Shown here: positions 29,001 through 32,000 of the stretch, piece after piece
Layout of the letters: each line of letters begins with the position of its first letter
How positions within the stretch are numbered: position 1 is the stretch's first letter
Assembly: GCA_038087875.1 (NCBI GenBank)
Contig: JAXLNO010002227.1
Span: forward strand, 1-64,000
DNA from: Malacoraja senta
Taxonomy: Eukaryota
Length of the DNA stretch: 64,000 nucleotides
Reading direction: 5' to 3'
Position numbers: made by a program

Positions 29001-32000
29001 AGGAGGACAGGGTAAAGCTGAAAGTGTTGCAGAGAAACCAACCCAAATTCACAGAGAAACAAAGAAAAGAAATTGCTGAGGTCTTTAAAACGGGTGCAGC
29101 ACAAAAAACCATTGGCATCATGGTAAGTCCATTTTTAACTTCCTGAACTTGGCAGGAGAAATGAATTATATTTTCATGATAAAATCTGCACCCATTTTTA
29201 TCACATGCATTCCATATTACCTGATAAAGCTGCTGCTTGTATGGCTCAACAATATATTGCAAATCCTATTTCTTGAACATCATTGACTGCACCATGGGAA
29301 TTTTTAATAGCTCTGCTACAAACCAGCCTTTGTCTGCCCTGTGTTGGACTGCCAACAATGGGGTTAAATTAAAGGCCATGTTTTGCAATTGAGTATTGTT
29401 GTTTCCAAACTTATTTTATGTTTAAGATAGACATAAAATGCTGGAGTAACTCCGTGGGACTGGCAGCATCTGTGGAGAGAAGGAAAGGGGGACGTTTTGG
29501 GTCGAGACCCTTCTTCAGAACCCCCTTTTTAGCTTTCTCAACTGTATGAACTCTGTTTGACAATTTGAGTTGTGATCTAATCGCTCAATTTATATTATTG
29601 TCCCAAGTTTTAATATTATCCAAGTTTTAATATAATACTTCATTTGCACTCAGACGTGGATTAAATTTCAGAAATGAAAAGCTTCTTAAGCAGGTGGTTC
29701 TACAGTTTTTATAGGAGCACATACTCTGAAACTGAGGCAATTTCCCATAATAATAATGGCAGGATTTAATGTATATCCCCTACCTCCTTCCAAATAAATT
29801 CCAAATGAAGTAAAATGCATCAATCGTAGAAACTAATTATTTGAGTGATATAAAGCATGAAAAATGTTTTATATATTTGAACATTTCCAAACTTTTGGAA
29901 AAGTGGTGCAGTGTGAATGAATGCTGGAAATCTGAGCAAAAAGAGAAATTTGTGGAAACTCAACTTAAGAGTTTAGTTTAGAGATGCACCGTGGAAACAG
30001 GCCCTTTGTCCCACCGAGTCCGTGCCGACCAATGATCACCCATACACTAGATCTATCCTACACACATAGGGACAATTTTGGAGAAGCCAATTAACCTACA
30101 AACCAGCACGTCCTTGGAATGTGCAAAAAAAAATCACACGGTCGCAGGTAGAACTTACAAACTTCTTACAGATAGCACCCGATGTCGGGATCGAACCTGA
30201 GTCCCTGGCGCTGTAAGGCAGCAGTTCTGCCGTTGCGCCATTGTGCTGCCCCTTGTGGAGAAAGAAATTAGTGCTTTATGTTTCAGGTCAATGTTGTTTT
30301 ATCAAGAATTTAGGTCTTGATGCTCCACAAACACAGATCGATTGTGCGTAGTCTCTCCTCTCTGCCTTAAGCTTCACACCTCTCCCCTTCTGCACTTTAA
30401 GGTCTAATAGCTCTCTTCTTAAAAGTTGTGATGAATGATTCATAGCCTAAAATATTAGTTCTAGATGCTGCCTAAATCGCGTTGCACCAACATTTTAATT
30501 TACTCCCACACATTTGTAAAACACACAAATTGTCTTGTTCCACACAAATTGTAGAACACTCACAAATACGAAGATAGACACAAAATGCTGGAGTAACTCA
30601 GCGGGTTAGGCAGCATCTCTGGAGAGAAGGAATGGGTGACATTACGGGTTGAGACCCTCCTTACAAACACGACATTTGTGTTTGGGTCTGCTTATGTGAC
30701 ACCCATGAAGCAGTAAAAATCGCCCACAGTATGAATATTTCAACTGAAGTGTCTGAACATAAATTTGAACCAAACCAGCGTGCAACATTTACCATTGTGA
30801 TGGGGGGGGGGGGGGGGGTTCATCCATAAAGAAAATACAACAAGCCTGCTCTGCAAGAGCAATAAAACTGACAGCACTCTGATCTGTTTTGTATTTAAAT
30901 ATCCTCAAGCTGTTATTTTAAGAATCCGAGACTTTGCAGTGCTCTTTGTGAATCACCCATTAAAAGCAAGTTGGGATCAATTCCCAACTTCTTGTTTGAA
31001 ATGCCATAAAATTTAAAGTGTGCAGAATTTATTATAGCATTCTATATTTATTATATAATTTATTATAGCATATAGGTATGCAAGTAAAACTAAACACCTT
31101 TTTATACCAAGACAAATTTGACCTGTCCCCTTGTGACACATCACTGAAGAAAACTAAATGGTAATAATAAATGTGGACTAGGAATTTTGTCATGAGTGGA
31201 CTGGGCTCTCAATTTAATGTAATTGTTTATTAACAAAATAAAAATTCGAAAAATTGGAAAACTTGTATGAAACTGGAAAATTACTTTCATTTCAACAATT
31301 ACAAATAAAATATAAACTCGGAAATAATCAATATTTTAAATATTTTCAAATATGCGACTATTTGAAAAAAATACAAAAGATAATAACCCAGTAGATGTAT
31401 TGGACGAGGCAATGCAGATAAAAGCGGAATCAGCAAACTTAATATCATATTTGTATAATATTATCTTAAATGTACAAATACCACCTACGGAGGGTATCAG
31501 AAGAGACTGGGAACAAGAGTTAGCTATTAAAATTTCAAAGGAAAGTTGGAATGAATACATATTAAACGTGCATAAATGCTCGATTAATGTAAGACACACT
31601 TTAATACAATTTAAAATTTTACATAGATTATATTATTCAAAAACTAAAATTCATAAAATTTTCCCAAATGTATCATCTATTTGTGATAAATGTCAATCCC
31701 AAGAAGCTACTATAGCACACTCATTCGTTTTCTGTACAAAAATTCAAAAATTTTGGAATGAAATTTTTGAAATCTTTACAAAGTTATTTAAAACAAGACT
31801 GATACCCAAAGCAGAATGGATTATCTTCGGTATAACGGAAGATGGTCCAGAACTAAATGTGTTTCAAAAGAAACTAATGGACTATGGGTTAATAATTGGA
31901 AAAAAGCTAATTCTAAAATTTTGGAAGAAGGCTCCAATACCAACTATAAATATGTGGATTTCAAATATGTTTGAAACATTACACCTAGAAGAGATAAGAC

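What the first reader, a model, noticed from the sequence alone, without database searches (positions are those of the whole stretch)
29072..29122. Conserved HxW motif removed by a 3-codon deletion in the penultimate exon
The sequence gives …KEIAEV-FKTGAAQKTIGIM, where PER1/PER2 have …ELxEV-HxW-xxxGGLPxAIDV (recalled). The exon is 142 nt and the frame is preserved. The His/Trp and the following LP are lost, while the upstream VLKEDRxKL…QPxF helix is retained.
Basis: partly seen in the sequence, partly recalled or inferred. Interest (0 to 1): 0.65.

Follow-up and report, generated by a model that had tools for sequence, protein, structure and literature searches.

The report
PER2-like gene with pared-down CRY-binding domain

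Summary
Exon 28981-29122 is 142 nt with AG/GT borders. It encodes a peptide that matches mouse and human PER2 CRY-binding-domain (CBD) chains up to "...AEV" and no further. Mouse PER2 has five residues between Val1192 and Thr1198; the window has two (F, K), so three residues are missing. No His or Trp is left in the tail, and which three residues went cannot be settled.

The gap is not isolated:
- The preceding exon (25818-25917) lacks 29 residues, mouse 1117-1145, which include the buried Trp1139.
- Asp1206, the Asp of the WDR5-binding IDVT motif, reads Gly.
- The best candidate last exon (33255-33467) has no CXXC zinc ligands. No + strand frame out to 56 kb offers a PER-like CXXC.

The central clamp is kept: Asp1167, residues 1171-1174 and the QPxF loop. 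Splice sites and phases of the five C-terminal exons are intact.

My best reading is an intact PER2-like gene, next to a HES6-like gene, whose CBD is reduced to that clamp. CRY binding would then be weaker and zinc-free.

Two things stay open: whether the gene is truly PER2, and whether HxW varies in other fish or sharks. The protein databases needed were closed.

The parts
28981..29122 (+). Penultimate coding exon of the PER gene (142 nt). It encodes the central helices of the CRY-binding domain plus a diverged 13-residue tail.
   Evidence: AG/GT borders and phase; PDB PER2 CBD chains at E 1.5e-08 to 1.3e-07; Pfam Period_C profile positions 121-155 of 171, E 1.8e-10.
29006..29029 (+). Retained CRY-clamp residues. 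D9 corresponds to mouse Asp1167. L13-K14-V15-L16 correspond to mouse 1171-1174 (LKLL in 4u8h_B).
   Evidence: Alignment rows. Their roles, a salt bridge to CRY2 Arg501 and loss of binding when 1171-1174 are charged, come from Nangle 2014 Results.
29084..29089 (+). F35-K36, the two residues that stand where mouse PER2 has five (1193-1197, starting with His1193). This is the site of the 3-codon deficit.
   Evidence: plus the mouse 1198-1211 peptide printed in PMC13649712.
29111..29122 (+). I44-G45-I46-M47, at the position of the mouse WDR5-binding motif 1205-IDVT-1208. The Asp (1206) reads Gly.
   Evidence: Positional alignment anchored on T37-G38 and I44 (inference).
25818..25917 (+). Preceding exon (100 nt), SSCLSSSKYFGSNDSDNEKIDARTMMTYQLPF. 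It lacks the 29 residues that in mouse PER2 are 1117-1145, which include Trp1139.
   Evidence: Query 5-21 matches 4u8h_B 6-22 and query 21-31 matches 4u8h_B 52-62; the same gap appears in 6of7_B (weak E of 0.09-0.24 but collinear). Pfam Period_C covers only profile 56-75. No DPxW/WLLM-type motif in any + frame of 23300-29000.
24293..24467 (+). Exon encoding the start of the Period_C domain.
   Evidence: Pfam Period_C profile 1-55, E 2.1e-08; AG/GT borders and phase.
22555..23249 (+). Large Pro-rich exon upstream of the CBD.
   Evidence: AG/GT borders and phase. The nearest Atlas cluster is named 'Period 2 (Fragment)', score 0.93, 194 of 256 features shared.
33255..33467 (+). Candidate last exon (70 codons plus TGA). 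It holds no Cys at all, so no CXXC.
   Evidence: Phase-0 AG acceptor after a pyrimidine-rich stretch; AATAAA at 34185 and 34213. Homology is not shown: no PDB hit at E<=10, no Pfam hit and no Atlas hit. The assignment is an inference.
9689..16078 (+). PAS-A and PAS-B exons of the same gene, within ORFs 9689-9952, 14336-14563, 15599-15889 and 15905-16078.
   Evidence: Matches to mouse PER1, PER2 and PER3 PAS chains, E 4e-22 to 6e-10; Pfam Per3-like_PAS-A and PAS_3.
55612..56528 (-). Neighbouring HES6-like gene. The Orange-domain exon ends in WRPW (55612-56121) and the bHLH exon lies at 56412-56528.
   Evidence: Pfam Hairy_orange, E 1.1e-14; ORF text. The peptides encoded by the two mouse Hes6 qPCR primers printed in PMC8746294 (my hand translation) both occur in these ORFs.

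Best explanation
The window carries an intact-looking Period gene, most likely the PER2 orthologue, of a non-mammalian vertebrate. Its C-terminal CRY-binding domain has been reduced by in-frame changes to the central helix-loop-helix that clamps the C-terminal helix of CRY.

Four modules described for mouse PER2 are missing or altered:
1. The N-terminal anchor with Trp1139, which tucks beside CRY's secondary pocket and serine loop (29-residue deletion).
2. The turn after the second helix (five residues reduced to two; this is the flagged 'HxW' gap).
3. Asp1206 within the IDVT WDR5-binding motif (reads Gly).
4. The CXXC pair that shares a zinc ion with CRY (absent from the candidate last exon).

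Shown: the sequence changes, the intact splice sites and phases, and the retained clamp residues.

Inferred: the protein still binds CRY through the clamp, but more weakly and without zinc. It no longer touches the serine loop, so it would not tune CRY's affinity for CLOCK:BMAL1. It no longer binds the WBM site of WDR5. The three-codon gap is one step in this modular erosion, not a lesion with a function of its own.
For: - The exon matches PER2 CBD chains only up to 'EV', and Period_C only up to profile position 155 of 171.
- Mouse 1198-1211, printed, fixes the deficit at three residues and puts Gly at the Asp1206 position.
- A 29-residue deficit covering Trp1139 is seen against two PER2 chains. 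Only 2 of 81 + strand ORFs in 24468-29125 hit Period_C, and both are the known exons.
- 0 of 80 + ORFs in 29123-34600 hit Period_C. No PER-like CXXC appears in + frames from 29100 to 56000.
- All 4 internal C-terminal exons have AG/GT borders, and the phases of all five exons chain without stops.
- The PAS exons are well conserved, which argues against a pseudogene.
- Module functions come from Nangle 2014 Results, from passages of Fribourgh 2020 and from passages of the WDR5 paper.
- PER2 identity: a HES6-like neighbour, PER2-HES6 adjacency in mammals and an Atlas cluster named 'Period 2'.
Against: - Orthology is not settled. Summed bits over four PAS exons are 274.0 for PER1, 255.9 for PER2 and 243.0 for PER3. 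One exon scores best with PER3.
- The last exon has no transcript support and no detectable homology, so 'no CXXC' rests on a model.
- The TG...I anchor behind 'three codons' and 'Asp1206 to Gly' is only 3 of 11 identities.
- Published data suggest modest effects of single modules. Ten single alanine-stretch mutants bind CRY1 normally. D1206A changes the CRY1 Kd only from 35 to 69 nM. Mice with both zinc cysteines mutated show only about a 25-min shorter period.
- I could not compare other fish or shark PER sequences, so the changes may be common to a wide lineage or paralogue.
Confidence: 0.55

Rival explanations
1. This is ordinary lineage or paralogue variation. The part of the CBD after the central helices is simply variable outside mammals, or the gene is a PER3- or PER1-type paralogue. 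CRY binding is carried as usual by the central clamp, and the three-codon gap has no functional meaning.
For: [quoted passage not shown] Binding is robust to single-segment mutations. The PAS-B exon 15905-16078 scores best with mouse PER3, at 91.9 bits against 87.2 and 86.8.
Against: [quoted passage not shown] The HES6-like neighbour and the Atlas cluster name point to PER2. The survey found no such signal in the Per2 CBD.
Confidence: 0.27
2. The gene, or at least its 3' end, is decaying or is used in a non-canonical isoform. The CBD exons are relics under relaxed constraint, or the real transcript ends elsewhere.
For: There are three separate losses in one domain. The last exon has no detectable homology. 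A transposon-derived ORF (zf-RVT) lies in the last intron. There is a precedent in cavefish per2, whose main isoform lacks the Cry-binding domain (passages of PMC5993827).
Against: All changes are in frame. All 4 internal exons have AG/GT borders, and none of the five exons has an internal stop. The clamp residues are conserved: 22 of 35 identical to mouse.
Confidence: 0.13
3. This is an assembly or sequencing artefact that removed 9 nt from the exon and 87 nt from the preceding exon.
For: None specific. I have only one assembly to look at.
Against: Both deficits are exact multiples of three inside exons with intact borders. The window has no N. The flanking residues have diverged too, which a simple collapse would not produce.
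Confidence: 0.03

Closest known systems
Mouse and human PER2 CRY-binding domain (PDB 4U8H, 4CT0, 6OF7)
   Same: The same domain and exon-level homology (Period_C). The central helices with Asp1167, residues 1171-1174 and the QPxF loop are kept.
   Different: It lacks the 1117-1145 segment with Trp1139. It has 2 residues where mouse has 1193-1197, and Gly where mouse has Asp1206. No CXXC was found.
Per1/Per2 zinc-ligand (Cys-to-Ala) knock-in mice and the reindeer PER2 interface substitution (PMC11645128)
   Same: These are natural or engineered weakening of the PER-CRY interface within the CBD, with the rest of PER intact (passages).
   Different: Those are one- or two-residue changes. Here several modules are missing at once, and the phenotype is unknown.
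Cavefish Phreatichthys andruzzii per2 isoforms lacking the Cry-binding domain (PMC5993827)
   Same: A fish PER2 whose interaction domain for Cry is lost in nature (passages).
   Different: In cavefish the loss arises through aberrant splicing and a premature stop, and the genomic CBD sequence stays conserved. Here the coding sequence itself is pared down in frame.
Per1/Per3 CRY-binding-region diversification across vertebrates (PMC11457068)
   Same: The pattern is conserved up to a point and then declines sharply in the latter part of the CBD.
   Different: That pattern was reported for Per1 and Per3, not Per2. Residue-level data are in figures and supplements I could not see.

Membership tests
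Period (PER) protein family | Tandem PAS-A and PAS-B domains | tested here: met
   Four PAS exons match mouse PER1, PER2 and PER3 PAS chains, E 4e-22 to 6e-10. Pfam Per3-like_PAS-A scores E 5e-29.
Period (PER) protein family | C-terminal Period_C domain (PF12114) | tested here: met
   Three exons match profile positions 1-55, 56-75 and 121-155 of 171. Positions about 76-109 and 156-171 are unmatched.
PER2 orthologue | Adjacency to HES6, as in mammals | tested here: met
   A HES gene with bHLH, Orange and WRPW lies on the minus strand at 55.6-56.5 kb. It contains both peptides encoded by the mouse Hes6 primers. PER2-HES6 adjacency is stated in PMC8746294. Calling the neighbour HES6 rather than another HES rests on those two short peptides and on my recall.
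PER2 orthologue | Closer to PER2 than to PER1 or PER3 in sequence | tested here: inconclusive
   Bits for PER1/PER2/PER3 per PAS exon: 81.2/67.1/60.2, 53.3/52.5/49.0, 86.8/87.2/91.9 and 52.7/49.1/41.9. The Atlas nearest cluster for the large exon is 'Period 2 (Fragment)' at 0.93, which is a lead only. No phylogeny was possible.
Canonical PER1/2 CRY-binding domain | N-terminal anchor with buried Trp1139 | tested here: not met
   A 29-residue gap covers 1117-1145 in two PER2 chains. No such motif occurs in + frames of 23300-29000. Only 2 of 81 ORFs hit Period_C, and both are known exons.
Canonical PER1/2 CRY-binding domain | Central helix clamp: Asp1167, residues 1171-1174 and the following loop | tested here: met
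   D9 and L13-K14-V15-L16 align to Asp1167 and LKLL, and QPKF aligns to QPRF.
Canonical PER1/2 CRY-binding domain | His-x-Trp after the second helix | tested here: not met
   The tail VFKTGAAQKTIGIM has no His or Trp. The His is seen in all three PER2 chains. The Trp is recalled, not seen in any output.
Canonical PER1/2 CRY-binding domain | Asp1206 (salt bridge to CRY2 Lys503; WBM motif IDVT) | tested here: not met
   I-G-I-M stands at the aligned position. The alignment anchor is weak, at 3 of 11 identities.
Canonical PER1/2 CRY-binding domain | CXXC zinc ligands (Cys1210, Cys1213) | tested here: not met
   The candidate last exon has no Cys. No PER-like CXXC is found in + frames of 29100-56000. 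The last exon is a model without transcript support.
Canonical PER1/2 CRY-binding domain | Binds CRY1/2 with nanomolar affinity | not testable with these tools
   No CRY sequence from this genome was available, so no complex prediction was run.

The most novel reading that the evidence does not exclude
A jawed-vertebrate PER2 orthologue, still under selection, has dispensed with the Trp1139 anchor, the zinc clasp and the WDR5-binding Asp, and keeps only the central clamp. This would break the 'strict conservation across vertebrates' reported for the PER-CRY zinc finger. It would be a natural minimal CBD. It would also imply that in this lineage PER2 either works largely without stable CRY pairing or that CRY has co-evolved, for example by losing its own zinc ligands.
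Probability: 0.3. Interest if true: 0.7.

Novelty: new variant of a known kind. Interest (0 to 1): 0.45.

Why it matters
The PER-CRY interface is central to the vertebrate clock's negative feedback. Its modules (secondary-pocket anchor, clamp, zinc clasp, WDR5 motif) have been separated only by engineered mutants in mouse. A natural PER2 that keeps the clamp but lacks the other modules would show which of them are dispensable over evolutionary time. It would also point to lineages where PER-CRY pairing, CRY stabilisation against FBXL3, or PER-WDR5 competition work differently. If the pattern proves common in non-mammalian PERs, the finding is ordinary, and the claim of strict conservation needs narrowing.

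Tried and rejected
- translated the exon in the wrong frame; one search corrected it.
- get_proteins does not accept PDB sequence ids. I therefore never saw the mouse chain beyond the aligned rows. The residues 1194-1197 and the Trp of HxW stay unseen.
- Schmalen 2014 (Cell) is not held.
- A search for PER2 together with W1195, Trp1195, H1193, His1193 or W1139 found 0 papers. The human PER2c paper has no mention of Trp.
- Last exon: no PDB match at E<=10, no Pfam match and no Atlas hit.
- The exon with the CK1 phosphorylation cluster had no PDB match.
- I looked for an alternative exon encoding the Trp1139 segment or a CXXC tail, by regex and by Pfam on all + ORFs. None was found.
- A frameshift origin for the diverged tail was considered and set aside by eye: the other two frames of 29084-29122 (one printed) look no more PER-like than frame 0, and no search or alignment tested this.
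- CACGTG E-boxes: 3 in the window against 4.63 expected, so no enrichment.
- No complex prediction was run, because no CRY from this genome or from an allowed reference set was available.
- The joined coding sequence was not built, searched or folded.

Full report
**Scope and limits**

The window has no N. I do not take it for human. Its best-conserved PER exon is only 20 of 34 identical to the 6of7_B PER2 chain, which I take to be human, and 22 of 35 identical to the mouse chain (my counts). I searched the spliced model exon by exon. The joined coding sequence was not built, searched or folded. Comparators were PDB chains (mouse PER1, PER2, PER3 and one further PER2 chain), Pfam, the Atlas and papers.

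**The observation**

The exon is 28981-29122, 142 nt, with AG before it and GT after it. One leading base completes a split codon. The 47 full codons read DIVTVLKEDRVKLKVLQRNQPKFTEKQRKEIAEVFKTGAAQKTIGIM.

Against PDB, 3 of the 10 sequences listed at E<=10 are PER2 CRY-binding-domain chains, with E from 1.5e-08 to 1.3e-07. The other 7 have E>=0.028. All three PER2 alignments end at query residue 35 or 36, opposite '...REVH' or '...REVHQ'. Pfam Period_C likewise matches residues 2-36 to profile positions 121-155 of 171 and stops.

The WDR5 paper prints mouse PER2 1198-1211 as TGGLPTAIDVTGCV. 4u8h_B is 121 residues long, which is the length of the 1095-1215 span given for 4U8H, so its His at index 99 is His1193. 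That numbering also puts Asp1167 and residues 1171-1174 where Nangle 2014 describes them. Mouse therefore has five residues between Val1192 and Thr1198, and the window has two (F35, K36). That is a three-residue deficit if T37-G38 equals Thr1198-Gly1199.

The anchor is weak: 3 of 11 identities over T37-M47. Which three residues were lost cannot be decided. What is certain is that no His or Trp remains and that 'LP' reads 'AQ'. The Trp of the HxW motif appeared in no output; it is recalled.

**The surroundings change the picture**

The five C-terminal exons are 22555-23249, 24293-24467, 25818-25917, 28981-29122 and the candidate last exon 33255-33467. The 4 internal ones all have AG/GT borders. 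The phases chain through all five, and none has an internal stop.

The 100-nt exon before the flagged one aligns to PER2 chains in two collinear pieces. Query 5-21 matches 4u8h_B 6-22, and query 21-31 matches 52-62. The same holds in 6of7_B, where chain residues 29-57 are skipped. The E-values are weak (0.09 and 0.24), but the only 2 hits at E<=10 are both PER2. The 29 skipped residues are mouse 1117-1145. They include Trp1139, which Nangle 2014 describes as buried at the highly conserved N-terminal end of the CBD beside CRY's serine loop. They also include residues 1135 and 1136, which contact that loop.

No other place encodes this segment. No DPxW- or WLLM-type motif occurs in any + frame of 23300-29000. 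Of 81 + strand ORFs of at least 20 aa in 24468-29125, only 2 hit Period_C, and both are the known exons.

**Downstream of the flagged exon**

Under the TG...I register, I44-G45-I46-M47 stands where mouse has the WDR5-binding motif 1205-IDVT-1208. So Asp1206 reads Gly. Asp1206 forms a salt bridge to CRY2 Lys503 and is the conserved Asp of the WBM motif.

The best candidate last exon has a phase-0 AG acceptor at 33253-33254, 70 codons and a TGA stop. AATAAA signals lie at 34185 and 34213. It contains no cysteine. None of 80 + ORFs of at least 22 aa in 29123-34600 hits Period_C. None of the CxxC occurrences in + frames from 29100 to 56000 looks like a PER tail.

Nangle 2014 states that conservation of vertebrate PER1/2 ends at this CXXC and that the zinc ligands are conserved throughout vertebrates. 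The homology of my last exon is not demonstrable. 'No CXXC' therefore holds for every candidate I could find, not for a proven transcript.

**What is kept**

- D9 aligns with Asp1167, the salt bridge to CRY2 Arg501.
- L13-K14-V15-L16 aligns with residues 1171-1174. Charge substitutions there abolish binding.
- QPKF aligns with QPRF in the loop.

According to Nangle 2014, this is the key anchoring site, the clamp on CRY's C-terminal helix, and it is the region that overlaps the FBXL3 site.

**Which PER is it?**

- The four PAS exons score as follows for mouse PER1/PER2/PER3: 81.2/67.1/60.2, 53.3/52.5/49.0, 86.8/87.2/91.9 and 52.7/49.1/41.9 bits. That is no decision.
- The large exon's nearest Atlas cluster is named 'Period 2 (Fragment)', at 0.93 with 194 of 256 features shared. 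This is a lead only.
- On the minus strand at 55.6-56.5 kb lies a HES gene with bHLH, Orange and a terminal WRPW. The peptides encoded by the two mouse Hes6 primers printed in PMC8746294 (my hand translation) both occur in it. That paper states that PER2 lies next to HES6 and PER1 next to HES7.

I rate PER2 orthology at about three in four.

**How it most likely works**

Shown:
- the sequence losses;
- the intact gene structure;
- the retained clamp.

Inferred:
- The protein still docks on CRY's C-terminal helix, but without the zinc clasp, without Asp1206, without the turn, and without the anchor at the secondary pocket.
- Affinity and lifetime of the complex should therefore be lower and independent of zinc or redox state.
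- The tuning of CRY's affinity for CLOCK:BMAL1 through the serine loop should be lost, as should WDR5 binding through the WBM site.

Against large effects, each single module matters little in mouse:
- Ten single alanine-stretch mutants bind normally.
- D1206A moves the CRY1 Kd only from 35 to 69 nM.
- Knock-in of both zinc cysteines shortens the period by about 25 min.

The combined loss has not been tested anywhere I could search.

**Rivals**

- Ordinary paralogue or lineage variation. A vertebrate survey reports a sharp decline of conservation in the latter CBD of Per1 and Per3.
- A decaying or alternatively used 3' end, as in cavefish per2.
- An assembly artefact.

**What I could not see**

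- Figure 1A and its source data in Nangle 2014.
- Supplementary Fig. 3a of the WDR5 paper.
- Fig. 5 and the supplementary tables of the G3 survey.

These are figures or supplements not available to me. They may show directly whether HxW varies.

**Verdict**

The feature is a new variant of a known domain, of moderate interest until cross-species comparison is done.

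Noticed in passing
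window 25818-25917 (+): The exon before the flagged one lacks 29 residues relative to PER2 chains (mouse 1117-1145, including Trp1139). This is a larger loss in the same domain than the flagged gap.
   Followed up: yes
window 33255-33467 (+): The candidate last exon of the PER gene has no cysteine at all, so it has no zinc-binding CXXC. It has no detectable homology to PER tails in PDB, Pfam or the Atlas.
   Followed up: partly
window 55612-56121 and 56412-56528 (-): A HES6-like gene (bHLH, Orange, terminal WRPW) lies convergent with the PER gene, about 22 kb downstream of its stop. One CACGTG sits at 56986, upstream of the bHLH exon, but the motif is not enriched in the window (3 found against 4.63 expected).
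   Followed up: partly
window 20631-20795 (+): The exon with the CK1 phosphorylation serine cluster reads ...AASVTSRGSYSSTIVHVGDKK.... By my recall of mammalian PER2, the serine run is three residues shorter here. No PDB chain was available to check this.
   Followed up: partly
window 31340-32077 (+): A 245-aa open frame in the last PER intron matches zf-RVT, the zinc-binding region of reverse transcriptases (E 1.4e-4, below Pfam's cutoff). It is probably a retrotransposon remnant.
   Followed up: no
window 34882-37740 (-) and 61727-62712 (+): Long open frames that look by eye like retrotransposon (LINE) reverse-transcriptase pieces. They were not run against Pfam.
   Followed up: no
window 3847-4258, 19049-19380, 30051-30213, 39567-39882, 41218-41613: Several copies, on both strands, of a short interspersed repeat whose translations share similar peptides in the ORF list. 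They were not classified.
   Followed up: no
window 2001-4000: This is the most GC-rich 2-kb bin upstream of the PER exons (GC 0.478 against about 0.40 elsewhere). It may be the promoter or first exon region. The start codon of the PER gene was not located.
   Followed up: no
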